Notes: a model not told the origin generated them from the letters alone. Positions 20,749-46,366 are shown, numbered from the stretch's first letter. The stretch is DNA of 64,000 bases from a virus (IMGVR_UViG_3300034374_004935:19639-83638), one strand, 5' to 3'. Translations and numbers: made by a program.

Positions 20749-20754
20749 AAAAAA

Positions 20755-27141: not shown

Positions 27142-30100
27142 CTAGTTCCACCCATTATACATGTCTTGTTCATTTTCTAGCTCTTCTATACCTTGTAATA
27201 GAATCTCCTCTCTTTCTCCTTCTGTATAAGCATCCCAATTTCTAACAGGAGACGGTCCTAAAGTTTGCTTTAACCATTTTATAAGAGAGTATTGCTTTTC
27301 AGGGTCATTAGAAAGAACGTTAGCAAAGAATCCATCACCTACTAATTGCTTGTAGAATTTGTTTTTCTCTCCAGGATATTGAAATTCATATATATTTTTC
27401 CATCCAAAAGGTATTTTCTTTTGAGCCCATTTAGATCTTCTAGATTGCCCTTCGTAAGGTCCACTTTCAATTGCTGTACCATCAAATAAATCTGTAAGGT
27501 CTGTCCAACCTTTAAGCATTTTTGTACCTACCACAGGCTCATCTATAAGGTCTGTAAGAGTTGCAGGACTCCAAGGAGCTGACTGTTCCATTAATACCCT
27601 GTTCATGATTAATGAAGTAAATTGTATAACAAATTGATCTTCATCATCTTCGTCTGCAAACTTCTGTGCTAATCCTGCTAAGAACGAGACTAGTATTGCA
27701 GCAAACATATCTATTACAGATTTTTTAACTCCTCTTCTTTGTGCTTTAGTCATTCCGTCATACACAGAATGTGCTGCCATAAGATCTCCTCCTTTCATAG
27801 CTTTAAAAACACTAGGAAGATATTGTCCAAAAAATGCTCTATAGTGTCCTATTTCTTCTTCACCTGTTATCCAACTTGTTTTTTGAGTCTGCATCTTAGC
27901 ATCGATTAAGTTAACGAACCAACCACGGTGCATTAAAAGGAAGTCTCCTGCAGAAGTTCTTGCTAGCTTACCTTTATCAGTAGCTCCTAGTAAACCGTCT
28001 ATATTATTACTAACATATTCTATCTTACCCTTTACTGCATTTAATAGTCCATCATTAATGTACTGTTTCATGCCTTTTTTTATCCTCAATTGATTGTTAA
28101 CAACTTCATAAGCATTGTATAGACTTTTTTCTCTAAGAGCTTCCCATTCTTTTTGTACAGATTTCTCATGGGCTTTGTCGGCTTTTCTAGATTTTCCGTA
28201 TTCTATTCCTTTTTTAGTAGCTGTTTTTCTTAAGAATTGTTCTTTAGTAATAAAATTGCCATCGTATAATCTGTAGTTATCATATACTCCTAAAGAGATT
28301 CTAGATTTTAATCCGTAATCTCCTGTAGCATATGTAACATACATTAAATCTCCGCTAGCTAATTTTTTTGTTAACCTAGATTTATCTGTCTCATATAACA
28401 TAGAATCTAAACTAACAACTCCCATATCCTGGTTAAGAAGATGCATCTTGCTACTTTGTTTATTAGACCCTATTTCTCCTATAACAGTTCCTATTTCTTT
28501 TAAGAATTCTATTCTTGACCAATTTTTACTTTCAGCAGTAATATATAAACCAGTAGAACCTTCTATAATAGAATCGATAGATCCTTTAATGTAACCTGCT
28601 AAAGATGTAGGCACATTAAATGCAAGGTTATTGTTTCTAATATATGAAGCTATACCTGATGTTAGTTTTGTAATACTTACAGTTTTATTTGTGCCTGGTA
28701 TAGTATACTCAGCAGTCTGCCTTTGTTGACCATAAACTAAACTGTCAATCATTTCTTTAACAGTAGCGTATTCCATACTTGCTTCAGATGCTACCTTTTC
28801 TTTTATGTTTCCTCTTCTAACACTATAGTATTCTTTATCTTTTAAAGAAAATAGTATGTTGTTTACATCAGGAGAAATTTTTGTCATCTGATAAAAATTC
28901 TCTGCCATCTCTGCAAACATTACAAAAGCTCTTCCGAAATCAGTAGTTAATTTAGAAGGGTCATCTAATTCTCTTGTAAAGTAAATTGGAACTGTTTCTT
29001 TATCAAGTTCTCTTAACTCACCGAATTGAGTATCATCTTGTTCAATCATTACTCCTTCTCTAGCAACTTCTTTTATTCTAGTAAGAATATTTCCGTCTGC
29101 TCTAAATAATCTATCTAAAGTACTCTTCATCATAGAAGGACGCATGTAAAGCAACTGATCCGTTTGAAATCCTGCAGGTAATTTTGCAAGAGCTTCTCTT
29201 TTTACTCTCATCAAAGTTTCATAATGAAGTCTGAATTTCTCATCTTTCATTAATTTTGCAAAATTCTTATTCTTATAACTATCGTTAGGAACTTGTTTAT
29301 ACTCTTGTCTGATATAATATCCTTGTTTTTTTTTCTCAGCTATATCACTTTCATTTACCCAAATAGGATCTCTATTTGAATTTCTAAGTTTCATTAATAC
29401 TTGAGTAGTTAAATTGCCTTCTTCATTTATTATATCTTTTTTAGCATCTACTTTAATACTAACAGCATTTTTAATATACCAACCTTCCCACATCTTAGCA
29501 TATGCGGCAGCTTGTTCTGCTGTAAAGAAATTTTTATTTATTAAACTAGGATCTCCTTCTCCAGTTTCTGGGTCTACGTAACCTAATTTCTCAGCTACTT
29601 TTTTTCTAAACTTTTCTCTTTCTTTATAAAATTTAGAATAGTTATAATCTGCTACCATATAATGGGTAGGCTTATTGCCGTCCATCTCTATGAGATCTTC
29701 TTGTTTATATTTACTTAAGAATAAAGTCTGGGAAGCTAATACATCTCTAGCAGTACTTACGGCAAATCTTTTAACATTATTATAAGCATCATAAATAAAT
29801 TTATGTACTGATCTAATAACAGCTGACTTAGCATTTTTAAAGTTACCTGTATAATATTTAAACCAATCAAAGAATTTTGTTTGCATAGCTTCAAAAGCAC
29901 TCTCTTCATCAAAATCTTTATCTATAACTTCACCATCAGGTGTTCTATTTATTTCTCTAAACTTTTCTTTATTTTTTTCTAATCTTAAAGGTTTTAATCT
30001 GGTTCTAGATTTAGTTATTAAATCTCTTAAACTAGCTACTGCTTCCTCTATATCTGCTCCTTCTTCTCTAGTAACAGTAGATACTCTTACATCTTCTATC

Positions 30101-31611
30101 AAAGTATTGATAAGAGAATTATAACTATCTAAGAATAGCTCATAATTATATAATGTTCGTCCACCTAAAGTAACGTCTCCTCTTTCTGCAGAATCTAATA
30201 CTTTAAATATTTCATATACTTCTTCTTTAGAAGAGTAAATCCATTTAGTAATACCAGTATTATACCTAGCATTTTCAAGGTCTCTTTGTAGACCTTCTAT
30301 CTCAGCTGTAACTGCAGCAATTGCTTTTTTACTTTTCTGACTTCTAGTATCTCTTTGAGCTTCTTTAAGTCTTTGTTTCTTCTTTAAAAGCTGCTGCTCT
30401 ACTTTTTTAAGAAACTTTTCTTTTTCAGTCAGTTTCCTTTCATCGCTTCTTTTTTCTTTTTGATATTTAATATCATCTTTTGTAAAAGGTCTTTTGCCTT
30501 CGTGTTTCTTCAGCTGTTTATAGGACTCAAACTTTTCATATTTTCCTACTTGCTCTTGATTTAATATATCTCTAGCCAAAGGAATAACAACATTTTCTAT
30601 ATCATTTCTACCTGCACTATCTATTCCTAGAGCCCAATCTAACCAGGCAGTAAAATCTTGCCATACTTTCTTAAGACTTTGCCAGAATCCTGATACATCT
30701 TCTTCAATAAATTGATCAGTCTGTTTAAACTGATTAACTATTTCAGCTGCTAATATCTTACCTAAAGCTTCTTTTCTAAAGTCTTCTTCATTCTCATAGA
30801 TATCTTTATACTCTTCTTTTACTTGTGCGTAAGTCTCAGTCTCTGTGACTTGTTCTAAAGCTTGTTTTATAGTAGTAGGACCTAAAATATAATTAGCCTC
30901 CCCTTGGCTCATCAACTGCATCTCAATAGCAAAGTGAGCGACTTCTTCTGCAAGAGTATCTATCTTAGCTCCATCAGCAATAGCGATAAGAGAATTCATA
31001 AAGTCAGCAACTCCTAAAGCATTTTCTTCAAATCTATTAGGGAATTTTTCCATCACAGATTTTAAAGACTCTATAGCTACTCCATGTTTTCTTGCCCAAG
31101 CTCCTAATATTCTATCTAATTTAGCATTTGCTTTTTCAGTATTCTTAACACTCATTTGTCTAAACATACCGTTAGCATATGGTGAGTAGTAAGTATCTTC
31201 TTTCTGGGCTACATTAGCATTTTTATAACCTGCTATATAATAAGTGCCATCAAACTTTTCTTTAAGTCTCCAAGGCTGATCCCCTATTCTATCAGAAATT
31301 TGTCTAAGCTTAGTATTAATTCTTCTGACATCATTTTCTGATAAATCTTTTTGATATACTTCATTAAAGAATATATCACGAGCTTCTTTTATAACAGCTC
31401 TAGCTCTAGAAGGACCTCCTTGATATAATACTTGTTTTTCTTGAGTATTTTGTATAGAAGTTAGACCTATTTGTTCTATAGTAGGAAAATCTTCTGTATT
31501 ATTTTGTTCCATCCATATACCAACTTTAGCAGCTACTATAAGAGGATTTACTTCTGTATCTAGTAACAGCTGTTTAAATTCAGGATGAGATTTATTTATA
31601 CATTTACTCAT
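27142..31611 (-). CDS. giant virion cargo/ejection protein (degenerate zincin 'EEVAH', C-terminal hydrophobic segment)
   Basis: 1489 aa, directly downstream of the vRNAP as in crAss-like phages. Confidence 0.8.
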   Translation of the reverse strand: MSKCINKSHPEFKQLLLDTEVNPLIVAAKVGIWMEQNNTEDFPTIEQIGLTSIQNTQEKQVLYQGGPSRARAVIKEARDIFFNEVYQKDLSENDVRRINTKLRQISDRIGDQPWRLKEKFDGTYYIAGYKNANVAQKEDTYYSPYANGMFRQMSVKNTEKANAKLDRILGAWARKHGVAIESLKSVMEKFPNRFEENALGVADFMNSLIAIADGAKIDTLAEEVAHFAIEMQLMSQGEANYILGPTTIKQALEQVTETETYAQVKEEYKDIYENEEDFRKEALGKILAAEIVNQFKQTDQFIEEDVSGFWQSLKKVWQDFTAWLDWALGIDSAGRNDIENVVIPLARDILNQEQVGKYEKFESYKQLKKHEGKRPFTKDDIKYQKEKRSDERKLTEKEKFLKKVEQQLLKKKQRLKEAQRDTRSQKSKKAIAAVTAEIEGLQRDLENARYNTGITKWIYSSKEEVYEIFKVLDSAERGDVTLGGRTLYNYELFLDSYNSLINTLIEDVRVSTVTREEGADIEEAVASLRDLITKSRTRLKPLRLEKNKEKFREINRTPDGEVIDKDFDEESAFEAMQTKFFDWFKYYTGNFKNAKSAVIRSVHKFIYDAYNNVKRFAVSTARDVLASQTLFLSKYKQEDLIEMDGNKPTHYMVADYNYSKFYKEREKFRKKVAEKLGYVDPETGEGDPSLINKNFFTAEQAAAYAKMWEGWYIKNAVSIKVDAKKDIINEEGNLTTQVLMKLRNSNRDPIWVNESDIAEKKKQGYYIRQEYKQVPNDSYKNKNFAKLMKDEKFRLHYETLMRVKREALAKLPAGFQTDQLLYMRPSMMKSTLDRLFRADGNILTRIKEVAREGVMIEQDDTQFGELRELDKETVPIYFTRELDDPSKLTTDFGRAFVMFAEMAENFYQMTKISPDVNNILFSLKDKEYYSVRRGNIKEKVASEASMEYATVKEMIDSLVYGQQRQTAEYTIPGTNKTVSITKLTSGIASYIRNNNLAFNVPTSLAGYIKGSIDSIIEGSTGLYITAESKNWSRIEFLKEIGTVIGEIGSNKQSSKMHLLNQDMGVVSLDSMLYETDKSRLTKKLASGDLMYVTYATGDYGLKSRISLGVYDNYRLYDGNFITKEQFLRKTATKKGIEYGKSRKADKAHEKSVQKEWEALREKSLYNAYEVVNNQLRIKKGMKQYINDGLLNAVKGKIEYVSNNIDGLLGATDKGKLARTSAGDFLLMHRGWFVNLIDAKMQTQKTSWITGEEEIGHYRAFFGQYLPSVFKAMKGGDLMAAHSVYDGMTKAQRRGVKKSVIDMFAAILVSFLAGLAQKFADEDDEDQFVIQFTSLIMNRVLMEQSAPWSPATLTDLIDEPVVGTKMLKGWTDLTDLFDGTAIESGPYEGQSRRSKWAQKKIPFGWKNIYEFQYPGEKNKFYKQLVGDGFFANVLSNDPEKQYSLIKWLKQTLGPSPVRNWDAYTEGEREEILLQGIEELENEQDMYNGWN

Positions 31612-34600
31612 TAGTTACATTTTATAACATTATATTTTTCTTCAGGAGAAAGAGTGTCCCATTCTTGTTGAGTCATTATATCTCTAGTAGATGTACCGTT
31701 AGCAGTTTTTATTCCATAAAGATAATTAGTTATACTTGGACCATTTTGATATATCTCTTCTACTATATAATTTTGGTTATCTCTTAACCATTTATCTCCT
31801 TCACTTATCTGTTCTCTTTCACGCTGTATCGTTTCTCTGTAATCCTTAGTTACATTTTCTACTATTGCGTTTATAAGTTCCATAGATTCTTCGTAAATTT
31901 CTTCTCCTCTACCTTTTTTAGGTACTTCATAAAATATCGAAGTTAACCAATCTATAAATTTTTGCCAAATACTTTTTGATTCTTGTGGAGCTCTTAAGCT
32001 TTTAACATGATTTGCAAAGTCAGGATTAGTAAAAATTTCTGCTACAAATTCAAATTCATCTGTAAAACCGTAAAGATCTTGCTTCGGAGATTCACTCTTT
32101 TTATCTAAATTTTTTGCTTCCTTAAATAAATTTGTTAGCTCAGTATTCTTTTGTCTTAACTCTTTGTCTATAATATCTTGAGTAACTCTTTTACCATCTT
32201 TTACAGTAGTTTGTTTTCCTTTAACAACTAAATCAATAGTAAAAGCATGGGTTACTTCATGGAGGAAAGCATATAAATAAAATGCTCCACTATCTACTTG
32301 TCGTATTGTTTCTTCATTTAAATATATTGTGTCATTATAGTAGAACATGTAAGTACCTCTACCTCTTGTTTGCTCTGCCCACTCTTCATTATTTAAAAAT
32401 TTAACTTCAAAATTAACTCTTCCTAGTTTAGTAACTAGCTGTGATATATTAGAGTCTTTTTCTAGATAAGGCCAAAAAGCTCTGAGTACATCTTGACTGC
32501 CTTTAATTTTTTCTGGATCAAAAAAGCTTCTATCAAAATTCACAGCTAATTGTTCCCAAGAAACACTATCATGATAATTGTCTACAAGCGTCTCTGAGAT
32601 ACCTGAAACCTTTAGCTTAAACATTTCGTAAAGTTCTTTAACCACTGGGTCATTTTCAGGAGTCTTATCTACAAACTTTTGCTCCATATTCTTAGCATTG
32701 AATATTTGGAATTTCCCATTCTTAATCTCTGCTATAAACTCAGCATCTTTATACTGAAGTCTATACATTTCTGTATCGGTAGAAAGATCTACTGGAGCTG
32801 TTTTCTTTGTTAAATCTACTTTAGGTTTAATTGTACTCGGTACTTCTCCCTCTGCTGATTTAATATTTTGTGTGATTTCATTATCGACTGCTTGGTCTGC
32901 TAATCTTTGAGCTTCTGTTTTGCCGTCTTTTATAGTGTCTGGTGCAGGAGATACAGAGTTTTCTATTGCTCCTAATGCATTAAATTCTAAAGCGACATTA
33001 CTAATCCCTAAATTAGGTACTCTATTATATTTATAAACAACAATTTCTTGGTTATTACTATTGTATTCTATAATTGTATCTGTTAATTTATAGATAGAAG
33101 TTGCATAATGATTATTTATTTTAGTATCATATGCTTTTATATACGGTACAGGTTCGTCGAATCTGTCTCTAAGATTAGTTGTAGCATAATTACCTATGAC
33201 AACTAAATTGCCTTTTAAGTCTTTTATTATATTAGCATCTGCTTCGTAGAAAGTTGATGTAATTCTTCCTGTAGGAGTCAGGTAATTCCCAGCATCTTCT
33301 TCTGATAATGTTCTATCTATTTTAGCAGTAGGAATAAAATTATGACGATTAGAATAGTTACGAATAAATTGTTCTATAAATCTTCCATTATACTCAGAAT
33401 CATAATTCTCTACCATTAATCTTTTCTGAAGAAGTTCGTTCATAGTAAGCTGTCCTCCTCCATCTTGTATCATTAAGTCTGGTTGAGTAGACTGATACTC
33501 ATTAGTAAAGAACATGACGGGAATAACATTAGCAAATGTATAAGGACCGAAATTAAATCCGTTAGCAAAGAACGAATACTTTATTAATTTTTTTGCTATC
33601 TCTCTAATTTCAGGATCAGGGTCTAATAACATTCTTTCCCAAGAATCTGATAATGCTTCTATATCTTCAGCAAACTTTCCTGTTTGATAGAATTGAATTC
33701 TGCTAATAGGAGAAGTTAAATCTGGACGTACTATATGAAGTTGGTCCATTAATGGTTTAAATGGAGAATTCTCAGGTAAGTTTCTTTTAAACGTTAAAAA
33801 TTCTCCAGGGAATTTCTTTAATATATCGTCTATCTGATCGTGGTGGAAAAACTTAAATTCACTAGCAATGTAATTTAAATAGTTACTATTAATTAATTGC
33901 GCTTCTTCTTCTCTTAAAACTCCTGTACCTTTAAACTCAGTAAACTTTTCTTTAATTAATCCTAAAGGAGAGAACTTAGTTTCTGTAGGATTATTTTCAT
34001 TTATATTACCAATAGTTGGAAACACCTTTTCGTAAATACCAATAGGCTTATATAAACCGTATGTTGTAAATGCGGGGCTTTGTTTTTGTTTAGGATTTTT
34101 ATATAAGAAAATTTCTTCTAAACCTGATATTTTATTAGCTCCTCTTTGATTGTCTACTAATATTCTTGTTTGATTGTTTAAGAATACATAGTCAGCTGCA
34201 CCAGTAGATCCGTAAGCAGTAACAGAATCTGTTTTAGAAGCTCGTATTCCTCTAGATAATTCTTCTGCTATAGTATCTAATTCTTCAAATAAAGCAAGTG
34301 CTGCTTTTTGGATAAAAGCATTTTTAACACCTTTCTTACCACTTAGAGTTTTTTCTAACATCTCAGTAGTTAAGTCTTTTATATTTACTGGTTTCACAGT
34401 AGTTCCACTAGGAATCTGTTCTTGAAGATTAGCTATAATCTCTTTCTTTATTTGAGAAACAAGATTTTGTTTACTCATAGACCCTTGTTCATTTTGAACT
34501 CTATTTGTTAGTTCTAATATTGCAGGCTGATTTAGTAAAGCAAACATAAAGGCTTCGTCGACACCAAGTCTATCTGCAAGTGCTACTACATTAGCAGTAA

Positions 34601-40600: not shown

Positions 40601-41954
40601 CTGCAGAGATGCCTTGTTCTTCTGCAGCTTTTATTATATCATCAAGATCTTGTGCAGATAATTCTTGGTCAGAGTCTATAATCTCTTCTCTTGTCGGAGC
40701 TCTTTCACCTGGCTCTTCTTTTTTTACTGGTTCTCCTTTTTGTTGTTTCTTTCCTTCTTCTGTAGCTTGTGCTGAAAGAAGTGCTAACTCTTCATCAAAC
40801 TCAAATTCAAAATCATCGGGAGGTATTTGATCATCAAAGTATTCTGCTTCGTCTTTCTTAGTACTAGTTTGATTAGGATTAGGCTCATAAGCTTCGTTAG
40901 ATGTAGGACCAAATTCCTCATTGAAATTTTTCTCATCACTTTTATCAAAGTCTAATACTTGCTGCTCATAAGCTTTTTTCTCAGACTCACTTAATTGATA
41001 AGTTTCTAAAAAGAAAGAACTTGAATGAAAGAAGTTACCGTCTTCATGAAATAAGTCAGTAGTAATAGCTCCGCTTTCTGCAACTTGTTGATTATAGTTT
41101 CCTTCGTTGATTCTAGCAAAATCTATTTTTCTAATTCTTTTTCCTAAAAAATCAATAGCTGCATCTATTTGATCTCCTGGAATTTTTATTTCTTGAGGGA
41201 CAATTACTTCTCCTTCTACTTCTGTCCACTTAAATTCGAAATAAGAATCTTTTTTAGTATTGCCTCTTTTGTATTCAATATTAAATCTATAAGTAATATC
41301 TTCAAGAACTTCTCTAATTTTTTTGATATCATCAATATTAGTAGCTTCTTGTAATTCTTTTAGTTTAGTTTTTACAGTGTCAAAATCATTTGTATCTGCT
41401 ATCTTATGGGTAAATAACTTAACAGGATATAAACCATATGCAGAAGGAACTAACATGTAAACATATCCAGGTTCTAAACTTTCACTGAGATTTACTTTAG
41501 AGTTTTCTAGTTTTTCTCTTAATGCTTTTGCTTTTTCTGACCCCGCTCTCCCTGTATGAATAGTACTCATGACTGTATCTCCTTGTCCATCTTGTCCAAT
41601 GTTAACACGATCAATAGTTTTAATAACTAATAGTAGTTCATTATTTTTATCGCCTCTAGCATCAGCTGCTTTTTTTAATAAAACAGCAGGATTATTTTTT
41701 AAAGGCTCTCCATTGTTTTGTGGATCTGTACCAACATTAAGATTTCTTTGAATCTTTCTTTTAATTCTAACTCTTACAGGAGCTTGCTGTACAGTTTCTT
41801 TAGGTTTGTTGATTATTTTAGTTTCATCTAACTGAAACTCTTTTAGAGAAATCGCTTCACCTCTTAATAGCTGATCTAATAAACCATTATTAAGAATAGA
41901 TTTAAACTCTTCCTCACTTCGCCAATTACCGTCGTACCAATACTTACAAGCCAT
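31611..41954 (-). CDS. virion-packaged single-chain two-barrel RNA polymerase with two zincin-like domains
   Basis: 3447 aa; catalytic 'AGLDFDIDK' (35628-35642) preceded by 'NRIPTE'; 'ESAVKVG', 'VDNAKEP'; HEAFH (40155-40169) and HEVTH (32247-32261). Confidence 0.93.
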   Translation of the reverse strand: MACKYWYDGNWRSEEEFKSILNNGLLDQLLRGEAISLKEFQLDETKIINKPKETVQQAPVRVRIKRKIQRNLNVGTDPQNNGEPLKNNPAVLLKKAADARGDKNNELLLVIKTIDRVNIGQDGQGDTVMSTIHTGRAGSEKAKALREKLENSKVNLSESLEPGYVYMLVPSAYGLYPVKLFTHKIADTNDFDTVKTKLKELQEATNIDDIKKIREVLEDITYRFNIEYKRGNTKKDSYFEFKWTEVEGEVIVPQEIKIPGDQIDAAIDFLGKRIRKIDFARINEGNYNQQVAESGAITTDLFHEDGNFFHSSSFFLETYQLSESEKKAYEQQVLDFDKSDEKNFNEEFGPTSNEAYEPNPNQTSTKKDEAEYFDDQIPPDDFEFEFDEELALLSAQATEEGKKQQKGEPVKKEEPGERAPTREEIIDSDQELSAQDLDDIIKAAEEQGISAGVAAMEETRSNESTLLDSESETGDDIDTDVSSSDDIIGDPFGDSNLKTKMGPKMDPELAKEDAKKAREQGLETLKRILGESFKRQSGKKGTVRVIKDFDSLRHYLPKESFEMLQQALKNGDELYGLFTTAAVLISELAPAGTEAHEAFHVIFNLVLPIEQRVKILNEIFYKYQEEIPLTRKEVTLEDGTKEVQYVRPTFIELEEFLADKFMAYEQSQEVDKLKPVSKQPVPEDKRTGQQKTKDILAGKENFKETNAFFKGLSRMLRVFFKKNKVLNIDNLFENINLGVYADSIKFKNTVLKRSIRQSIGQSVRTTAPNRKYINPVEKKWALRYFNSKIKKAIEGFRQQLDPENKLSVPEIINLVGKKSKNSGPHIIFSNAITDVVRDIAVAKQLLAQAEAAGDTKKVAKFKNLIHHFSKFYKIITNNQKIVRKNPKGRIEFMKSSDLLEQFNRFLKSNEGIEISYGGFEAESRSPQEGTNGQVTEQDYINAIEEGEDTPDRVAQINSIERNPKQGMKQQLISFFANIPKYNSDGSKAISPFGIQDVEDSNVVFAALVSKVANSYTLENFDAKLATLNKPWKQDVIDLFAQNPRLRTLFFANFASKNFAEFESVYEVNGEFRVFSSNSKTIKDIISEDLIANFLSSTNSLYKVGKQDALWTDNIDAAKAKAFLDGLLKLDFLYRQNDVSADEKVAEKSVDFFENGKFFKLLSDHLATVNLFLTPEQLDKIYNSGGAKFLYKRGKIGNLLRVLQEVGKKLVGTDRTAMESRTVVGEDGKKRTVKTPKYKRDAKARVNPFTKLTPETDIQYGKSKASGKSLVQQLAEAIEPALDTELVSSFRGIGGKTKYNIILSGQINKMLEEVKDEDSLQKLIDNVAGNDLLVSNLPFLQDLKNDDGLRNNLKSIILDGLTRKGQNKAVTYGKMSDIELEATSFGLYYRRGKREYQQGNVGIKLGIPSNSPTAHYLKVKRLSKDEIIDKLTDTAIAEMERMKFIKGLEEQYKKEKKENKDAVPHPLLLNKNYVKRGKNFQLLTFLNKVPAKNLKTKQGIKKEIQKFFEFNLEKDTFFRQQYLKYKESGIVEGKTAEGLMTFNPNILDKSLETTQAQNEVFIDYLMNTFYYNAQTNVLFAGDPSFYKGTTDYQKRFKQIFSPGTYTTLTGSYSAIILEDSMVPTSKENLKHINDIIDKSNMTPVEKEALKIMWKEKANAKKVGDQNNESDGGTFVSLDFRKKILKGLGEWGEAHDKAYDRIKKGKETIEDLRIIDPPASPLKPFTFTQMYVDGVRVPMQIKNSETVLTKSFALKKDKQGNLVYPKLAAIYEDMERGAYEVALFESAVKVGGITNGKDSRFTHYEKQADGSYIPSVGYDSVKVFNLDISDYRKQQETPAHHIDERSNFGSQLRTLITGDIAMDQDYDLFIGDTRTSLKGYEVVSLYQDIIFDDLKESFESLEKDMVNPDGTLNYVKLIPLLREHAVERNMGDQYLQAISPVEVTVNDASLGSKKTITTALPLFHPRILYQTETLLHSIFKNNVVKQKIKGGGVINTPSYGVSTLQREEDADLVGERYHPKLKIEDGKIIWEVLMPHTSKKFFPTKDGEVDFEYINMYASELLEIIANRIPTEDKYSMFNIRIIGFTPPSMANTIIMPPEVTTIAGLDFDIDKLYFLSKHFRVIDNIPKITQYYSTIDNQEQANDLAENIYRNKILIKKFAEDTIKNEKEREEFLKRVETSIQEVALATKDKNRSLSDIKREIRESERELKKSKQLNTEDAKALKKELQETIDSFYNILNGQEWDEELVEKSIALQEAEEGKNVIIDVIASALLDAKNLGINISSYNTRAARDNMKINIMKSILENRNTAAAIINPGNFDSLKYAGARIRLLKAGKTKEANLKGKELLAAADKLDDDADFNIAYPSTQLELFRRNMDGNDLIGIMANHNTHHAKAQYTNLKLVDQLEFNKQTYQALNQIRSRTGKRISRILATKLAAVVDNAKEPISAFLNFNMFTANVVALADRLGVDEAFMFALLNQPAILELTNRVQNEQGSMSKQNLVSQIKKEIIANLQEQIPSGTTVKPVNIKDLTTEMLEKTLSGKKGVKNAFIQKAALALFEELDTIAEELSRGIRASKTDSVTAYGSTGAADYVFLNNQTRILVDNQRGANKISGLEEIFLYKNPKQKQSPAFTTYGLYKPIGIYEKVFPTIGNINENNPTETKFSPLGLIKEKFTEFKGTGVLREEEAQLINSNYLNYIASEFKFFHHDQIDDILKKFPGEFLTFKRNLPENSPFKPLMDQLHIVRPDLTSPISRIQFYQTGKFAEDIEALSDSWERMLLDPDPEIREIAKKLIKYSFFANGFNFGPYTFANVIPVMFFTNEYQSTQPDLMIQDGGGQLTMNELLQKRLMVENYDSEYNGRFIEQFIRNYSNRHNFIPTAKIDRTLSEEDAGNYLTPTGRITSTFYEADANIIKDLKGNLVVIGNYATTNLRDRFDEPVPYIKAYDTKINNHYATSIYKLTDTIIEYNSNNQEIVVYKYNRVPNLGISNVALEFNALGAIENSVSPAPDTIKDGKTEAQRLADQAVDNEITQNIKSAEGEVPSTIKPKVDLTKKTAPVDLSTDTEMYRLQYKDAEFIAEIKNGKFQIFNAKNMEQKFVDKTPENDPVVKELYEMFKLKVSGISETLVDNYHDSVSWEQLAVNFDRSFFDPEKIKGSQDVLRAFWPYLEKDSNISQLVTKLGRVNFEVKFLNNEEWAEQTRGRGTYMFYYNDTIYLNEETIRQVDSGAFYLYAFLHEVTHAFTIDLVVKGKQTTVKDGKRVTQDIIDKELRQKNTELTNLFKEAKNLDKKSESPKQDLYGFTDEFEFVAEIFTNPDFANHVKSLRAPQESKSIWQKFIDWLTSIFYEVPKKGRGEEIYEESMELINAIVENVTKDYRETIQREREQISEGDKWLRDNQNYIVEEIYQNGPSITNYLYGIKTANGTSTRDIMTQQEWDTLSPEEKYNVIKCN

Positions 41955-41968
41955 GAATTAAAATTTAT

Positions 41969-41976
41969 CAAAGTTA
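41969..41976 (-). promoter_or_regulatory. TAACTTTG -7 element upstream of the vRNAP gene
   Basis: Matches TAnnTTTG; a near copy GTAACTTTAT lies at 53049-53058. Confidence 0.55.
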
Positions 41977-41986
41977 CGGATTTTTA

Positions 41987-44900
41987 CTAACATTGTTTTT
42001 CTCCTATATAGTTATTGCCGTCTAAGATATCAACGTACCCTTCACCGAATCTATTACTAAGCTGTTCAATTATATCATCGAAATTTTCTTCTATTACTTT
42101 TTCTCTAGCAGTCTGTTCTACTTCTGTTTCTGGCGAAGTAGTTTTTATTAGTTTACTATCTTCTAATGTACCTGTTTTTGAAATTCTTACTATTCCTCCT
42201 TCATCAGGAAATAAAATTTCTACTTGATCAAATCTAACACCGTTTGGATCTACAATAATATTAACTATTGTTCCTTTTCCAAATTTTGGATGTATAATAT
42301 TATCACCTTTTTTAAGTGTATCAAGTAATCCTAAATCAGATGCTATATCTACTGTAGTAGTTTGTTCTTGTTTGAAATATAATCCTTGTTTTATAGCCTC
42401 ATCTACAACAGCTCGTCCTAAAGGAGAAGAATAATTTCCTACTACTTTACCTGTTTCTAGATTAATTACTTCACCTTCCCCAAAAACTAAATCTACATTA
42501 GTAGAATATTTAACTCCTTTATACTCAACAATAATAGGAGGCAGATCTTTCTGTTCTACGTACTTTGATGTAGTAGTTTCTTTAGTTTCTGTTTTAAAAG
42601 CAACAGTAGCTTGATATCCTTCATAAGATTCTATAGAGTCTTTAGTTGTTGATGATATAAATCCTCCGTCAGTTTCTTTTGTAGAATTATATAAAGCCTC
42701 TCTTAAACCTTTTACACTAGGGTTTCTAGAAGTTGTTTGAAGTCTTCCTATAAAAGTATCTCCATGATATACATTAATACCGATGTTATCAGCATCATAT
42801 ACACTTTTATCTCCGTAAGAATTTCCGTTCTCATCTAACTCAGTAGCAAATTTAAATTCAGCTGTCTCTTCGTATTTTTCTAAATCTTCATTATTTAACC
42901 AATCAGGGCTATTAACTTTCTTCATGTCGTACCCATCTATTTCTGTTTGAGTAGTTGGTCTACCTTGACTATCTTCCCAAGGATAAGGTTTACCTGTTTG
43001 TGGATTTATTGGCGTTTTTATTAATTTGCCGTCTTCGTCAAATCTTAATTGCTTTTCGTTAATAGTAGGAATGTTACCACTAGTAGATTGTTCGACAGCT
43101 TCTTCGAACATGTCATCAATAGTAAAAGCTTCTTTCTTCTCGTCTTTAAACTCTGATGTACTTTGTACAGGTTCAGGAGTTACGTTTTCTTTCTTTGAAT
43201 TAGCAAAGTTAGTATTACGTTTAGAAATCTCTGAAACTATATCTTCATAGTTATTTAGAATAGTATTGAATGCATTTAAAAAACTAGTTTTAAAATCCTC
43301 GTTATCTTTAAAGTTATCTATATTATCTAATGAGTAATCTAATCCATTAGGAAGCTCGTCTCGGCTTTCCATAACTTCAAAAATATGTTCTACTAGATTA
43401 GCATTCTTTCCATCTTTTAATGCCTCAACTACTTCTTCATATGGAGCAGTTTCTGGGTCAGATAATTTTGATTTTACAGTATTTAATTGGCTTATAACAT
43501 TTTCAGAATGAGCAGGAACATCTTTTCCAAAAAGTTCTCTATAAGAATCAAGATTTGTTTTTACACTAGAACCATCTTGTTTTTTATTGACAGCTTCTTC
43601 TGCTCGTTTTTTTATGCCATCTATAAGCTCTTCAGCAAATTGTTTTTCAAAATCTTCTTTTAATTTAAACCAGGTATTGGCTCCTTTATTTGTAAAGAGA
43701 GTAGAATAGATTTCAGAAACTTTAGCTTGCTTAGTTTTAATTTGAAATATATCTTTAACAATACCTTCTATTTCAGATTTATTAAAGTTATATGATTCAA
43801 AATTATCTTCTTTTATTTGACCTAAGATCTCTTTAATAAAACTATCTAGTTTTTTCTTGCCTTCTTCTTGTGCAAAATAAATTACGTCTCCTTTTTCTAC
43901 AGCTGCTAGTACTTCTCTATAATTTTCATCTTTATATAAAACATCTAGATTACTATTAGGAGCTAATTCATTTAGTTTTTCTCTTAGTTCTTTTTCTCTT
44001 TCTTTTAGATTGTCTCTACTAGATAATAAATAAACAGCTTGTTTTTTAAGAGCGTTTTGTTTATTTCTTATAAAGTTTGCTTTTGCTCGCATATAATCCT
44101 GCTGATCCATTTCGAGCTCAGGATTCTTACTTGGGTCAAGTTCTTCTAATTGATCTAATCCTTTATAATTTTTAAGAAAGAATTTATCTATCCAGGTTTT
44201 TCTATCACTAGCTATAGAATCAAATGTATCTTGATTCTTAACAATTGTGTCAACTCTTTTACGAAGAGTTTCTAAATTCTTCTTTTTAGTTTCTTCTGTA
44301 AATTGAAGAGCTTCATCTTTGTGAGCAAACTGTTCGTTAAACTCTTCTAGAGACATATTCTCTAAAGCATCTATATCCTGGTACACTGTGTCCAGAATTC
44401 CATTGCTCATTCTGTTTTCTACAAAATTAAATAGCTCATCAAATTCTGCGTTCTTATATCCAAAGACATCTCCTTTAGCTAGAGCAAGATCTTTATCTTC
44501 TTGTATACTAACAGATTTTCTAAAAGCATCGAAATTATTTTTAAGGACTTCATTCATTTGAATTCCTTCATTATAATTTTTTATAGCAGCTTCTACTTCA
44601 GAAATCTTTTCTGATACTTCTCCTACTGCTTCATAAAAACCCCCGCTCCATCCAAGACCCATCTTACCACTTGCTTTAGGTTTTACCATAGGAATCCCTA
44701 AGAATCCCATTAAAAATCCTAAACTCATGGAATCAATTCCTTCTATAGATGTAGCATACTTTCTAGAAGCACTTGCCATAGCTTGTATAAAGCCTATAGA
44801 AGAGTCTCTAGCGCTTTTAGTATAAGGAGAAGCCCAATAGTCTGAATATCCTTTTTCTATAACACCTTGAGAAAATTCTTCAAATCCTTCAGTAATACCT

Positions 44901-46366
44901 ACTTTTAATGAAGGCATTGCATATTTAAATAAGAATTTTTCTAATTTAGTTGCACTTGCAAATTCTGAAACTAATTTTCCTGTAGCATCTCTAGTTGTTC
45001 CATAAAGGACTCCGCTTCTAGATAAAATCTTTTGATTGTTTCTAAAACCTGATCCAAATATTTTAGGGAACTGAATCATATAACTAGCACCTACTAATGG
45101 AATATTAGTAAGGAATGCTGCCGTACCTGCATTCTTAGAATTATGTTGCATCATTGCTAGTTCTCCTCTAGGAATTTTTCTAGCAATAGTTTCAATGATT
45201 TCTTCTTCTGAGATTTCTAGATTACCAAACTCATCTGTATTTTGGCGAACAAGTTCTTTATATTCCTCAAACAATTGAGGATCGTTCTTTATATATCCGT
45301 ATTTAGATTGTAATAAAGTACTGTCTTGAGTGTCTTTACCAATCATTGCTGATTCATAAGCAGCTGATCGATACATAGTTCCTATAGTACCCATACCTTT
45401 TTGTAAAGCATCGGTAGCTTTTACTATCTTTCTCATAGACTGTATGTCGTCTAATTTTTCTAAACCTCTAATAGCTCTGTAAGCTTTAGAAAATTTTTCT
45501 GTACCAATAGCGCCTGCACGAGCTATCGTTCTAGTGGGCCTTCCCATGGCTCCTTTTAATCCTACTTTTCCTAAAAGTATTTCTGCACCCACTGCCCCCA
45601 TAACAAAAGAGACTGTGGGAACAATATCGTCGTTAATAGATTTAAAAGGATGATCAGCTATTCTAGAAAAGAAAGTTTGTTTATCTCTGTTTTTAGCATA
45701 ATCGTATCCTCCGTAGATTACAAGACGTTGGTCTATGTATTCTTGGTTTTTATTAAACCACTCGCCTACATCATTATCAAAAACTTTAGTTCTATCCCAA
45801 TTCCATAATGCTGATCCTACTCCATATATAGGTGCTAAAATATTTGCTCCTATATTATTTAATGTAGAACCTGCTAATTTACCAGAAGTAGTTCCCAATG
45901 ATTCCCAAAAACCTTGATTTTCATCTAAATCATCTACAAACTTTTTTAATTGTTTGTAATAATTGTTTTGTCTAAATGCAGCATAATCTCCTATCTCTCT
46001 ATTAAATGTTATACCATAAGTATCAGGATCTAGTAGCCTAGTCATTTTACTGCCGTGCTGTCTAATATATTCTGCACGCTCATTAGGATCAGGAATTGCT
46101 TTAGCTAAATCAACAGAAGTAAATAATTCTTTAGCAGCGGGATCTACCATAAAGTTAGTTCCCTTAATAGTATCATTAGTTACTCCGTTAATACCTGCAT
46201 TTGCTAGATTATTTATAAAATCTTGTTGCTCTTTTCTAGGCTGTATATAAGCATCAGAAGATTGTATTTTTTCTTCTGCAGATTGTAGTATGGGATTTAT
46301 TTGAGGTTCTCCATCAGGATTACTAGTATCCATCCCTTTAAGATTGAGTTCTTTCTCGTCTGCCAT
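41987..46366 (-). CDS. giant virion cargo/ejection protein with C-terminal Tudor-like domain
   Basis: 1459 aa; Gly/Ala-rich hydrophobic segments, 'TEGFEEFSQ' motif; 'GDNIIHPKFGKGTIV' near the C-terminus. Confidence 0.8.
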   Translation of the reverse strand: MADEKELNLKGMDTSNPDGEPQINPILQSAEEKIQSSDAYIQPRKEQQDFINNLANAGINGVTNDTIKGTNFMVDPAAKELFTSVDLAKAIPDPNERAEYIRQHGSKMTRLLDPDTYGITFNREIGDYAAFRQNNYYKQLKKFVDDLDENQGFWESLGTTSGKLAGSTLNNIGANILAPIYGVGSALWNWDRTKVFDNDVGEWFNKNQEYIDQRLVIYGGYDYAKNRDKQTFFSRIADHPFKSINDDIVPTVSFVMGAVGAEILLGKVGLKGAMGRPTRTIARAGAIGTEKFSKAYRAIRGLEKLDDIQSMRKIVKATDALQKGMGTIGTMYRSAAYESAMIGKDTQDSTLLQSKYGYIKNDPQLFEEYKELVRQNTDEFGNLEISEEEIIETIARKIPRGELAMMQHNSKNAGTAAFLTNIPLVGASYMIQFPKIFGSGFRNNQKILSRSGVLYGTTRDATGKLVSEFASATKLEKFLFKYAMPSLKVGITEGFEEFSQGVIEKGYSDYWASPYTKSARDSSIGFIQAMASASRKYATSIEGIDSMSLGFLMGFLGIPMVKPKASGKMGLGWSGGFYEAVGEVSEKISEVEAAIKNYNEGIQMNEVLKNNFDAFRKSVSIQEDKDLALAKGDVFGYKNAEFDELFNFVENRMSNGILDTVYQDIDALENMSLEEFNEQFAHKDEALQFTEETKKKNLETLRKRVDTIVKNQDTFDSIASDRKTWIDKFFLKNYKGLDQLEELDPSKNPELEMDQQDYMRAKANFIRNKQNALKKQAVYLLSSRDNLKEREKELREKLNELAPNSNLDVLYKDENYREVLAAVEKGDVIYFAQEEGKKKLDSFIKEILGQIKEDNFESYNFNKSEIEGIVKDIFQIKTKQAKVSEIYSTLFTNKGANTWFKLKEDFEKQFAEELIDGIKKRAEEAVNKKQDGSSVKTNLDSYRELFGKDVPAHSENVISQLNTVKSKLSDPETAPYEEVVEALKDGKNANLVEHIFEVMESRDELPNGLDYSLDNIDNFKDNEDFKTSFLNAFNTILNNYEDIVSEISKRNTNFANSKKENVTPEPVQSTSEFKDEKKEAFTIDDMFEEAVEQSTSGNIPTINEKQLRFDEDGKLIKTPINPQTGKPYPWEDSQGRPTTQTEIDGYDMKKVNSPDWLNNEDLEKYEETAEFKFATELDENGNSYGDKSVYDADNIGINVYHGDTFIGRLQTTSRNPSVKGLREALYNSTKETDGGFISSTTKDSIESYEGYQATVAFKTETKETTTSKYVEQKDLPPIIVEYKGVKYSTNVDLVFGEGEVINLETGKVVGNYSSPLGRAVVDEAIKQGLYFKQEQTTTVDIASDLGLLDTLKKGDNIIHPKFGKGTIVNIIVDPNGVRFDQVEILFPDEGGIVRISKTGTLEDSKLIKTTSPETEVEQTAREKVIEENFDDIIEQLSNRFGEGYVDILDGNNYIGEKQC

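What the first reader, a model, noticed from the sequence alone, without database searches (positions are those of the whole stretch)
27142..46366. Three giant virion proteins have cysteines only at their adjoining ends: a possible head-to-tail linked ejection chain
Seen: reading the 1459-aa, 3447-aa (vRNAP) and 1489-aa proteins (about 6400 aa), I find only four Cys. All are at facing termini: ...GEKQC-stop (41990-41992) | MAC... (41946-41948), and ...VIKCN-stop (31617-31619) | MSKC... (31600-31602). The outer termini and the upstream 1093-aa protein have none. Known: ejected proteins such as N4 vRNAP are Cys-free, which is attributed to passage through the periplasm. Inference: strong purging of Cys with retention at exactly the two junctions suggests short terminal docking modules (e.g. 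'QQEWDTLSPEEKYNVIKC' with 'MSKCINKSHPEFKQLL'). These could join the proteins by disulfides, or by metal, in gene order, giving fixed stoichiometry and ordered threading through the tail, with release on reduction in the cytoplasm.
Basis: partly seen in the sequence, partly recalled or inferred. Interest (0 to 1): 0.85.

Follow-up and report, generated by a model that had tools for sequence, protein, structure and literature searches.

The report
Cysteine clasps chain crAss cargo proteins
Three giant proteins that this crAss-like phage packs for injection, its RNA polymerase in the middle, have cysteines only at the ends that face each other; relatives lose such a pair where genes fuse and gain one where a gene splits, which suggests an untested end-to-end tie into one long thread.

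Summary
The 1459-, 3447- and 1489-aa proteins (A, B, C; 6395 aa) hold four Cys: A1459 (last residue), B3, B3446 and C4. About 47 would be expected from the window's other ORFs.

They are the Crassvirales RNA-polymerase cargo block, equivalent to crAss001 gp47/gp50/gp49 and phi14:2 gp67/gp66/gp65. Those phages show the same terminal Cys.

The rule holds in Steigviridae, Suoliviridae and Intestiviridae, and in the non-crAss Cellulophaga phage phi17:2. It also holds in two IMG/VR samples, for example 52 of 53 abutting giant-gene pairs.

Where genes are fused, both junction Cys are absent. Where a GIY-YIG nuclease cassette splits gene C, a new Cys-ended tail and a Met-Ala-Cys head appear at the break. 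The head resembles this window's B N-terminus.

The closest precedent is the cryo-EM disulfide Cys1715(gp27)-Cys5(gp26) in cyanophage A4 (PMC12002296). I found no report for Crassvirales.

Pairing of the Cys is strongly supported. This scan has already noted the same pattern on many other genomes.

The parts
41987..46366 (-). Gene A, 1459 aa, equivalent to crAss001 gp47 and phi14:2 gp67. First link of the chain; its single Cys is the last residue.
   Evidence: Homology is linked through shared hits: phi17:2 gp039 and P0188 hit both window A and crAss001 gp47. 24 of 24 database homologues have exactly one Cys, at the last or next-to-last residue.
41990..42076 (-). A tail module (last 29 residues, DIIEQL...NNYIGEKQC) with the Cys1459 codon at 41990-41992.
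   Evidence: translation. C1459 is invariant in alignment A5 of 20 sequences.
41955..41986 (-). 32-nt spacer between the A stop and the B start. Relatives L002, L003 and L010 carry a ~160-aa ferritin-like gene here.
31611..41954 (-). Gene B, 3447 aa, the virion RNA polymerase (equivalent to crAss001 gp50 and phi14:2 gp66). Middle link; Cys only at residues 3 and 3446.
   Evidence: Invariant D2105, D2107 and D2109.
41889..41954 (-). B head module MACKYWYDGNWRSEEEFKSILN with the Cys3 codon at 41946-41948. It resembles the Met-Ala-Cys heads that follow GIY-YIG cassettes in relatives.
   Evidence: M1, A2, C3 and Y5 are invariant in A2 of 31 sequences. Heads are compared.
40155..40169 (-). HEAFH (zincin-type HExxH) motif, B residues 596-600.
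   Evidence: H596, E597, A598, F599 and H600 are invariant in A2.
35628..35642 (-). DFDID catalytic motif of the vRNAP, B residues 2105-2109.
   Evidence: Invariant in A1 and A2.
31614..31703 (-). B tail module (last 30 residues, ...QQEWDTLSPEEKYNVIKCN) with the Cys3446 codon at 31617-31619.
   Evidence: C3446 is invariant in A2.
27142..31611 (-). Gene C, 1489 aa, equivalent to crAss001 gp49 and phi14:2 gp65. Last link; its single Cys is residue 4. The start overlaps the B stop (TAATG).
   Evidence: phrog_37651 'virion structural protein' matches residues 946-1419. 64 of 68 database hits have Cys at residue 3-4.
31564..31611 (-). C head module MSKCINKSHPEFKQLL with the Cys4 codon at 31600-31602.
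   Evidence: C4, N6, P10 and L15 are invariant in A3 of 36 sequences. C4 is the only invariant column of A4.
46366..49647 (-). Upstream 1093-aa Cys-free protein. By position it is the gp46-like cargo protein; this was not tested by sequence against gp46. It lies outside the chain: neither its C-terminus nor A's N-terminus has a Cys.
   Evidence: Same position in relatives.

Best explanation
A, B (the virion RNA polymerase) and C are the three RNA-polymerase-associated cargo proteins of a crAss-like phage. Each gene break in this block is bridged after translation by a two-piece 'clasp'. One piece is a short tail ending in Cys on the upstream protein. The other is a short head with Cys at residue 3-7 on the downstream protein.

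The two pieces dock, and the two thiols most likely form an inter-protein disulfide once the particle is assembled or released. The result is a linear A-B-C chain that keeps N-to-C polarity. It is topologically equivalent to the single fused polyprotein that other lineages encode.

The near-total purge of internal Cys in this lineage would prevent wrong cross-links that would branch or knot the thread.

Shown: the Cys positions, their conservation, and their gain and loss with gene fission and fusion.

Inferred: docking, disulfide chemistry, fixed 1:1:1 stoichiometry, co-packaging, exit through the tail as one partly unfolded thread, and release by reduction in the host cytoplasm.
For: (1) Positions and depletion in the window.

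(2) Conservation.
- B homologues: 116 of 120 have Cys within the first 7 residues and 117 of 120 within the last 10. The misses are the fusions P0034, P0042, P0043 and P0115, plus P0096.
- A homologues: 24 of 24. C homologues: 64 of 68.
- First sample of 80 IMG/VR loci (not dereplicated): A C-terminus 52 of 52. B N-terminus 61 of 66, where the 5 misses are 2 undetected A+B fusions and 3 downstream pieces of interrupted B genes. B C-terminus 66 of 69, where the 3 misses are the upstream pieces. C N-terminus 68 of 71, where the 3 misses are 2 wrong start calls and 1 frameshift. The outward ends carry none: A N-terminus 0 of 7 and C C-terminus 0 of 70.
- Second sample: 52 of 53 abutting pairs of ORFs of at least 1000 aa carry both Cys.
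- C3 and C3446 are as conserved as the catalytic Asp residues in 16 sequences of 19-43% identity.

(3) This is not a nucleotide effect. In crAss001, DAC15, IAS and cr116 the A gene lies on the opposite strand yet keeps its C-terminal Cys. Both TGT and TGC are used at all four positions.

(4) Loss on fusion.
- A+B fusions have no N-terminal Cys but keep the C-terminal one: Suoliviridae cr118, cr6, cr113, cr56 and cr1; P0042/43; L013, L017, L019, L027, L028, L034, L040, L041 and L079.
- B+C fusions start Met-x-Cys and have no C-terminal Cys: Intestiviridae CrAss ZA, crAss002 and cr11_1; P0034.
- P0115 (5547 aa) has 0 Cys. BLAST shows B and C regions plus a 135-residue hit to the C-terminal part of crAss001 gp47.
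- On a B-core tree, 5 of 5 B+C-fused rows lack the C-terminal Cys (3 changes). 9 of 9 A+B-fused rows lack the N-terminal Cys (3 changes), while 54 of 54 unfused rows have it.
- P0034 has lost the C head and about 400 residues of the B tail region.

(5) Gain on fission. L175 and L111 share 93.8% identity over 1716 residues, and L169 and L141 share 95.4% over 1725. Each pair differs by a cassette in gene C. The cassette adds a tail of about 29 aa ending Cys-x, a GIY-YIG nuclease gene, and a Met-Ala-Cys head of about 24 aa. 7 loci have this arrangement, at two or more insertion sites. 6 of 6 nuclease ORFs tested match PF01541 above its cut-off.

(6) Precedent. A4 gp27 (1717 aa, sole Cys 1715) and gp26 (1114 aa, sole Cys 5) form a disulfide in the cryo-EM structure of the pre-ejectosome (PMC12002296, passages).

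(7) crAss001 virions do contain inter-subunit disulfides, and gp47, gp49 and gp50 are in virions by mass spectrometry (PMC10172136, passages and section 11).
Against: No biochemical or structural datum exists for any Crassvirales cargo junction. crAss001 cargo gave no ordered density.

Assembly takes place in a reducing cytoplasm, and many hosts are strict anaerobes, so the oxidant is unknown. No thioredoxin-fold or sulfhydryl-oxidase family is among the 25 of 32 Pfam families shown for the window's other ORFs.

Two Cys could also bind a metal.

The 'Cys only at the termini' picture is lineage-specific. crAss001 gp50 has an internal Cys, and its C-terminal Cys is 8 residues from the end. Some homologues have 10-23 Cys, so the mispairing argument cannot be general.

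Unresolved exceptions:
- P0096 has neither terminal Cys.
- P0167, P0172 and P0176 are C-like proteins without the head. They are probably truncated gene calls, but their contigs could not be fetched.
- L051 has a split B without Cys. The two pieces lie in different reading frames; this may be a frameshift or a sequencing error.

Independent contrasts are few: 2-3 and 3 pairs. All go the predicted way, but the sign test cannot reach significance.

The phi14:2 preprint supposes that fused forms are cleaved into parts. If they are, a permanent link is not essential.
Confidence: 0.65

Rival explanations
1. The same clasp acts as a static staple. The Cys pair locks neighbouring cargo proteins into an ordered core or co-packaging unit inside the capsid, as described for the A4 pre-ejectosome. 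It fixes stoichiometry and retention. The proteins are not threaded as one chain, and the link may have to open before exit.
For: In A4 the disulfide 'further stabilizes' a helix of gp27 inserted into a cleft of gp26, within a pentameric ring on the portal. Nothing in my data speaks to the order of exit.
Against: The Cys lie 0-9 residues from the very ends, and N-to-C polarity is always kept. A static staple would not need either. Fused polyproteins are accepted alternatives, which argues that linear continuity is what matters.
Confidence: 0.25
2. The facing Cys bind a shared metal ion (Zn, Fe or Cu), possibly with neighbouring His or carboxylates. The link then holds under reducing conditions and does not need oxidation.
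For: Assembly occurs in a reducing cytoplasm and many hosts are anaerobes. The C head has a nearly invariant His9. Ferritin-like genes sit in these junctions in some relatives.
Against: There is only one Cys per partner. His9 is absent from distant heads such as MGCVNKSSKEF and MAKKCAIIPQ. The solved precedent is a disulfide. crAss001 virions hold disulfides.
Confidence: 0.1
3. The terminal Cys do not pair with each other. Each one binds a third partner (portal, capsid or membrane), carries a modification, or acts as a nucleophile in self-processing, as in a split intein.
For: Fibre-like proteins downstream of C in some relatives also start Met-x(1-3)-Cys without a Cys-ended upstream partner, so an N-terminal Cys alone is not proof of a clasp. 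The cassette layout, with a nuclease gene between two gene halves, recalls fractured genes with split inteins (recalled, not checked).
Against: Both Cys of a junction are lost or gained together, while the other junction is untouched. Single-Cys giant proteins exist (4631 aa with 1 Cys), which rules out intramolecular pairing. The tail and head are only about 29 and 24 aa, and no Hint or intein family matches A, B or C. [quoted passage not shown]
Confidence: 0.05
4. The pattern is a by-product. Cys is merely tolerated at disordered termini, or the TGT codons serve translational coupling at gene junctions.
For: Junction 2 is a TAATG overlap in an AT-rich genome.
Against: The Cys are invariant in alignments of 19-43% identity. 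The outward termini never carry Cys: 0 of 7 and 0 of 70. The pattern persists when A is on the other strand or when a gene lies in the gap. Both Cys codons are used.
Confidence: 0.01

Closest known systems
Cyanopodophage A4 (Anabaena phage A-4L, Saffermanviridae) ejection proteins gp27 and gp26: Cys1715-Cys5 disulfide in the pre-ejectosome (PNAS 2025, PMC12002296; passages read)
   Same: The upstream giant protein has a single Cys 2 residues from its C-terminus. The next gene's product has a single Cys at residue 5 (MSKHC). The genes are adjacent and co-oriented, and both proteins are packed for ejection. The bond is seen by cryo-EM.
   Different: No sequence similarity to window A, B or C: BLAST E > 0.1, profile search of PDB, hhalign probability 0.1%. 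A4 has one link, not two. It has no RNA polymerase in the chain. The paper treats the bond as a structural detail and draws no general rule.
RNA-polymerase cargo block of Crassvirales: crAss001 gp47/gp50/gp49 (Nature 2023, PMC10172136) and phi14:2 gp67/gp66/gp65 (bioRxiv 10.1101/2020.03.07.982082)
   Same: Homologous proteins with the same catalytic DFDID motif and the same terminal Cys: gp47 -2; gp50 5 and -8; gp49 5; gp67 last residue; gp66 3 and 2179 of 2180; gp65 3. The proteins are found in virions, and fused polyprotein forms are known.
   Different: Neither text mentions these cysteines: 'cysteine' occurs 0 times in both, and 'disulfide' only for tail and capsid proteins. The journal version of the phi14:2 paper was not held. 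In crAss001 the A gene is on the other strand and B has one internal Cys.
Cys-free ejection proteins of Schitoviridae (N4 gp50, DEV gp71-73; PMC11445570)
   Same: A giant virion RNA polymerase that must pass a narrow tail, with strong suppression of Cys.
   Different: There the polymerase is one chain and has no Cys at all, not even at its ends. Here the chain is cut into three genes and Cys is kept exactly at the cuts.
Fractured genes with split inteins and a free-standing homing endonuclease between the halves
   Same: A homing nuclease gene sits between two halves of a host gene, and the element brings sequences that would restore continuity of the product.
   Different: The tail and head are about 29 and 24 aa, with no Hint fold. 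[quoted passage not shown] Continuity would be restored by a side-chain bond, not a peptide bond.

Membership tests
Crassvirales RNA-polymerase cargo block (gp47/gp50/gp49 type) | Giant protein with the two-barrel RNAP catalytic DxDxD motif, homologous to crAss001 gp50 and phi14:2 gp66 | tested here: met
   tblastn hits to 'putative RNA polymerase' of crAss001 and relatives, E down to 8e-76. DFDID at B residues 2105-2109 is invariant.
Crassvirales RNA-polymerase cargo block (gp47/gp50/gp49 type) | Flanking homologues of gp47/gp67 and gp49/gp65 | tested here: met
   C hits phi14:2 g065, DAC15 and IAS subunits. A is linked to gp47 through P0188 and phi17:2 gp039, which hit both. A direct A-versus-gp47 comparison was not run.
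Crassvirales RNA-polymerase cargo block (gp47/gp50/gp49 type) | Crassvirus virion module in the same genome (muzzle and ring proteins) | tested here: met
   Pfam crAss_MUZ E 3e-144, CrAss_Ring_1 E 2e-51 and CrAss_Ring_2 E 2e-31 among the window's other 43 ORFs.
Crassvirales RNA-polymerase cargo block (gp47/gp50/gp49 type) | Proteins present in the virion and ejected | not testable with these tools
   Known by mass spectrometry only for crAss001 and phi14:2.
Head-to-tail disulfide-linked ejection proteins (A4 gp27-gp26 type) | Cys near the C-terminus of one packed protein facing a Cys near the N-terminus of the next, with few or no other Cys | tested here: met
   for the window; for A-4L.
Head-to-tail disulfide-linked ejection proteins (A4 gp27-gp26 type) | The two Cys form a disulfide in the particle | not testable with these tools
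No wet data exist.
Head-to-tail disulfide-linked ejection proteins (A4 gp27-gp26 type) | Sequence homology to gp27/gp26 | tested here: not met
   The resemblance is one of mechanism, not of family.
Split intein / fractured gene | Hint-fold intein halves with a nucleophile at the start of the N-intein and Asn plus a nucleophile at the C-intein/extein border | tested here: not met
   No Pfam family matches A, B or C. Cassette tails and heads are only about 29 and 24 aa, with the Cys at the tail's end.
Cys-free ejection proteins (Schitoviridae type) | No Cys anywhere in the ejected proteins | tested here: not met
   Internal Cys count is 0, but four terminal Cys are kept.

The most novel reading that the evidence does not exclude
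The clasp is a portable device. GIY-YIG homing-nuclease cassettes carry, on either side of the nuclease gene, a Cys-ended tail and a Met-Ala-Cys head. These re-join the two halves of the cargo gene that the cassette has split, through a side-chain bond.

This would be a third way for a mobile element to make its insertion harmless, beside self-splicing introns (RNA level) and inteins (peptide level). The window's A|B junction has a MACKYWYDG head and no nuclease left. It would be a fossil of such an event in an ancestral fused gene. The three-gene layout of crAss cargo would then be a product of repeated invasion and repair.
Probability: 0.35. Interest if true: 0.9.

Novelty: new variant of a known kind. 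Interest (0 to 1): 0.8.

Why it matters
How podophages pass megadalton cargo, including a whole RNA polymerase, through a tail only a few nanometres wide is an open question. So is the order in which the cargo leaves. It is raised in both the crAss001 and the N4 papers.

A rule that every gene break in the cargo block is bridged by a Cys pair makes this directly testable in two cultured phages. It predicts a DTT-sensitive species of about 0.7 MDa and defined cross-linked peptides.

The rule would also explain why Cys is purged from these proteins. It would explain why the same proteins occur as one, two or three genes in different families, and why gene order can change without loss of function.

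It offers an annotation aid for giant viral ORFs: true starts and ends can be recognised by Met-x(1-5)-Cys and by a Cys within the last ten residues.

If the cassette reading holds, it describes a new kind of self-neutralising mobile element and a small natural two-piece protein clasp.

Tried and rejected
Family searches gave little.
- PHROGs found only phrog_37651 on C.
- Pfam found nothing on A, B, C or the upstream protein.
- megablast against the phage collection found nothing.

The nucleotide-level explanation is rejected. The intein reading is rejected. Intramolecular B3-B3446 pairing is rejected, because fusions leave single-Cys giants.

Other sequence comparisons were negative.
- Homology of the B head with the C head: hhalign probability 2.4%.
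- Homology of the A tail with the B tail: 0.1%. Neither is supported.
- Homology of C with A4 gp26 is not supported. The A alignment (A5) was built, but A versus gp27 was compared only by BLAST.

Labelling of A and C regions spread by BLAST hits among 415 proteins was contaminated by shared mobile domains and by fused proteins, so I dropped it. The tree test instead used:
- C-core labels;
- 11 hand-checked names of A+B fusions, of which 9 were rows of the tree;
- 'unfused' only where a separate A gene lies in the same locus.

Of 104 B-core rows, 101 distinct ones were used. 101 of the 120 database B proteins were left out to limit redundancy. 38 rows had no A+B label.

The metagenome scan for P0172 did not return its own contig, only 50% relatives that obey the rule. 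Supplementary files of the papers were closed and not requested. Extended Data Table 2 and the mass-spectrometry tables of PMC10172136 may bear on cargo disulfides.

Full report
**What is in the window.** Three abutting minus-strand genes encode proteins of 1459 aa (A, 41987-46366), 3447 aa (B, 31611-41954) and 1489 aa (C, 27142-31611). Together they hold four cysteines: A1459 (the last residue), B3, B3446 (next to last) and C4. The upstream 1093-aa protein has none, and the outward ends of A and C have none.

The other 32 ORFs of at least 100 aa in the window hold 81 Cys in 11,006 residues. About 47 would therefore be expected in A+B+C. The Poisson P of 4 or fewer is 8e-16, and the placement has a chance of about 9e-12.

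**What the proteins are.**
- B is a distant homologue (about 25% identity) of the virion RNA polymerase of crAss-like phages: crAss001 gp50 and phi14:2 gp66. Its DFDID motif is at residues 2105-2109 and is invariant in 16 and in 31 homologues.
- C matches phi14:2 g065 and the 'RNA-polymerase subunit' of IAS virus and others.
- A is tied to crAss001 gp47 through proteins that hit both.
- The window also encodes a crassvirus muzzle protein and ring proteins 1 and 2.

So A-B-C is the RNA-polymerase-associated cargo block. In crAss001 and phi14:2 these proteins are found in virions (passages of PMC10172136 and of the phi14:2 preprint).

**The pattern is general.** In cultured phages:
- crAss001: gp47 (2341 aa) has its only Cys at 2339. 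gp50 has Cys 5, 1334 and 2404 of 2412. gp49 (1349 aa) has its only Cys at 5.
- phi14:2: gp67 (1797 aa) has its only Cys as the last residue. gp66 has Cys 3 and 2179 of 2180. gp65 has its only Cys at 3.
- DAC15 follows the same rule.

In the 5.8-billion-protein collection:
- 116 of 120 B homologues have Cys within the first 7 residues, and 117 of 120 within the last 10.
- 24 of 24 A homologues have one Cys, at the last or next-to-last residue.
- 64 of 68 hits to C have Cys at residue 3-4.

In 80 IMG/VR loci found with a B alignment (not dereplicated; many are crAss001-like):
- A C-termini carry a Cys in 52 of 52.
- B N-termini carry one in 61 of 66, and B C-termini in 66 of 69.
- C N-termini carry one in 68 of 71.
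- The outward ends carry one in 0 of 7 (A N-terminus) and 0 of 70 (C C-terminus).

The misses were examined. Two are A+B fusions whose A part BLAST did not detect. Six are the two pieces of three B genes that are interrupted: in L043 inside the IGYR/IPTEDKYSM motif, in L070 by an inserted ORF, and in L051 by a frameshift. Two are wrong start calls, where an inner Met gives MAKSC or MAKKC. One is a frameshifted C whose first piece starts MGNC.

A second sample of 80 loci was drawn with a different query. It gave 52 of 53 directly abutting pairs of ORFs of at least 1000 aa with both Cys. The exception is the boundary between the Cys-free upstream protein and a giant of more than 5544 aa with no Cys, that is, the start of the chain.

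In the window's own clade the purge is extreme. There are 8 internal Cys in 132,761 residues of B homologues, 9 in 93,782 of C, and 0 in 40,493 of A. Control ORFs of at least 400 aa in the first sample had an N-terminal Cys in 0 of 56. They had a C-terminal Cys in 13 of 80; the several I looked at share one Cys-rich, WVH/WIH-type C-terminus.

**It is a protein-level feature.** In crAss001, DAC15, IAS virus and cr116_1 the A gene lies on the opposite strand, convergent with C, and still ends in Cys. In several relatives another gene lies inside a junction. Both Cys codons occur at each of the four positions, for example 45 TGT and 7 TGC at the A C-terminus.

**Natural experiments, loss.** Wherever two of the genes are fused, both Cys of that junction are missing and the other junction is untouched.
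- A+B fusions lack an N-terminal Cys, keep a Cys 0-4 residues from the end, and are followed by a C with Cys at 3-7. They comprise the Suoliviridae cr118_1, cr6_1, cr113_1, cr56_1 and cr1_1, the proteins P0042/P0043, and nine IMG/VR loci.
- B+C fusions start Met-Ser-Cys or Met-Ala-Cys, have no C-terminal Cys, and follow a protein of about 2000 aa that ends Cys-x. They comprise the Intestiviridae CrAss ZA, crAss002 and cr11_1, and P0034 within the window's own clade.
- For ZA and crAss002 the annotated starts lie upstream of an in-frame Met-Ser-Cys, which I take as the true start.
- P0034 has lost the C head (the first 32 residues) and about 400 residues of the B tail region.
- P0115 (5547 aa) holds B and C regions and a short match to the end of gp47, and has no Cys at all.

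On a FastTree of the B core (101 rows), B+C fusion needs 3 changes and all 5 fused rows lack the C-terminal Cys. A+B fusion needs 3 changes and all 9 fused rows lack the N-terminal Cys, against 54 of 54 unfused rows that have it. Independent contrasts number 2-3 and 3, all in the predicted direction, which is too few for a sign test.

**Natural experiments, gain.** In seven loci of the second sample (L164, L165, L169, L170, L171, L175, L179) gene C is cut in two by a cassette. The upstream piece has just two Cys, one at 3-7 and one next to last. An ORF of 161-261 aa follows. The six I tested of the seven all match the GIY-YIG catalytic domain above Pfam's cut-off, several with NUMOD3 or HTH domains. 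The downstream piece then starts Met-Ala-Cys; it has a single Cys in six of the seven loci, and in L165 a second, internal one.

Near-isogenic comparisons show what was added:
- L175 piece 2, residues 24-1739, is 93.8% identical to residues 388-2150 of the unsplit, single-Cys C of L111.
- L169 piece 2, residues 32-1762, is 95.4% identical to residues 453-2307 of the unsplit C of L141.
- The tail of about 29 residues (...KNGLLKIKCD) and the head of about 24 residues (MACKYTYNGQTYTKDEFY...) have no counterpart in the unsplit gene.
- The cassette sits at two or more different sites of the same host domain.

So the tail and head travel with the nuclease gene.

The heads (MACKYIYKGTTYSSKEEF and the like) resemble the N-terminus of this window's B (MACKYWYDGNWRSEEEF). 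The match is short, and convergence cannot be excluded.

**Beyond Crassvirales.** Cellulophaga phage phi17:2 (Lightbulbvirus, 145 kb) has an A-like gp039 (1957 aa) whose only Cys is the last residue. It also has a 517-aa gp038 with Cys at 4 and at 516, and a C-like gp036 (1914 aa) whose only Cys is at 3. A 119-aa gene lies between gp038 and gp036.

Anabaena phage A-4L shows no sequence similarity. Yet it has gp27 (1717 aa, only Cys 1715) followed by gp26 (1114 aa, only Cys 5). Its cryo-EM structure shows exactly this pair as a disulfide in the pre-ejectosome (PMC12002296, passages). I reached that paper through earlier notes of this scan and checked it myself.

**Mechanism proposed.** Each gene break is bridged by docking of a short tail and a short head. 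The link most likely involves oxidation of the two thiols to a disulfide. This gives a linear chain of about 6400 residues with stubs of at most 3 residues at the junctions in this window. The chain is equivalent to the fused polyproteins of other lineages.

Disulfides between virion proteins are established for crAss001, so the chemistry is plausible there. The inferences beyond that are fixed stoichiometry, co-packaging, passage as one partly unfolded thread and reductive release.

Against a universal 'no internal Cys' logic, many lineages tolerate 4-23 Cys. The conserved feature is therefore the terminal pair, and the purge is a trait of some clades.

**Literature.** I found no mention of these cysteines.
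- Full-text searches.
- Term look-ups inside the crAss001 paper and the phi14:2 preprint returned 0 occurrences of 'cysteine'.
- The N4 2026 paper asks how the three crass proteins relate to the three parts of the single-chain N4 polymerase.
- Cys suppression in Schitoviridae ejection proteins is published.
- The journal version of the phi14:2 paper and all supplements were not seen.

**Earlier notes of this scan.** The scan itself has recorded the same pattern on many other genomes: 144 notes in at least 129 genomes. My results agree with those notes. They add the near-isogenic cassette comparison and the link between the cassette head and this window's B head.

**Limits.**
- No fold or complex could be computed.
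- Contigs of the database proteins could not be fetched.
- Four exceptions therefore stay open: P0096, P0167, P0172 and P0176. The last three begin inside a region that is internal in longer homologues and that follows the head in cassette-split genes. They are therefore probably truncated gene calls.
- The samples are not dereplicated.

**Verdict.** Pairing of the junction Cys is strongly supported by comparison. The disulfide chemistry and the role in threading are plausible and untested. I rate it a new variant of a known kind, the A4-type head-to-tail disulfide. It is extended here to a multi-link chain that includes the polymerase, to a whole phage order, and to a mobile clasp cassette.

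Noticed in passing
L003 9516-9989, L010 9507-9989, L002 9502-9984, L103 380-886 (A|B junction); L019 17093-17584, L147 9213-9701 (B|C junction): Genes of about 160 aa sit exactly inside Cys-tipped cargo junctions in several relatives. The four I tested (L003, L010, L019, L147) match Pfam Ferritin, E 1e-10 to 5e-20, with weaker Rubrerythrin hits. The window has only a 32-nt spacer at this position. Either junctions are merely permissive insertion sites, or an iron/oxygen enzyme is tied to thiol chemistry.
   Followed up: partly
window 40155-40169 (-): B carries an invariant HEAFH (zincin-type HExxH) motif at residues 596-600. In phi14:2 the zincin-like domain is ascribed to gp65, and in p-crAssphage-like phages to the upstream protein, so the protease module moves between the three cargo proteins.
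   Followed up: partly
L043 12367-12583; L070 12493-13418; L092 (cr116_1) 20505-21346: B genes are interrupted inside or next to catalytic motifs (IGYR/IPTEDKYSM; after DFD). In L070 and cr116_1 an ORF lies in the gap. No Cys pair marks these breaks. They look like introns whose continuity is restored at the RNA level, in contrast to the GIY-YIG clasp cassettes.
   Followed up: partly
L096 (Cellulophaga phage phi17:2) 3239-16743: A non-crAss 145-kb phage has the same chain logic with a short 517-aa middle link: gp039 ends in Cys, gp038 has Cys 4 and 516, and gp036 has Cys 3.
   Followed up: partly
L111 16437-20351, L126 16088-18607, L164 17474-20299: Proteins downstream of C in some relatives also start Met-x(1-3)-Cys but have 4-10 Cys and no Cys-ended upstream partner. 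One has collagen triple-helix repeats (E 9e-24), so they look like fibres. Their N-terminal Cys may serve tail disulfides of the kind seen in crAss001.
   Followed up: partly
P0001 (database protein, 72% identical to B): The closest named relative of the window's polymerase is labelled by NCBI as a protein of a 'Candidatus Lokiarchaeia archaeon' MAG. This is most likely a phage contig binned into an archaeal genome.
   Followed up: no
P0007, P0012, P0021, P0027, P0030, P0032, P0097-P0120: B homologues carry varied extra domains: DUF1768 (PF08719, which one source record, for P0027, names a predicted ADP-ribosyltransferase); PF18760; PF12694; and helicase families (PF13604, PF05970). The chain is thus also a carrier of changeable injected enzymes.
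   Followed up: no
L093-L095 (cr6_1, cr113_1, cr56_1); L074: Annotated Suoliviridae cargo genes contain 26-73 in-frame stops under table 11. One IMG/VR locus reads open only with TAG=Q. This is consistent with the stop-codon reassignment known in crAss-like phages.
   Followed up: no
window 26191-27081 (-); L005 14365-15243: The 296-aa, Cys-rich (6 Cys) protein just downstream of C has a weak calcineurin-like phosphoesterase match (E 9e-4, below the cut-off). It is conserved in the same position in the closest IMG/VR relative.
   Followed up: no
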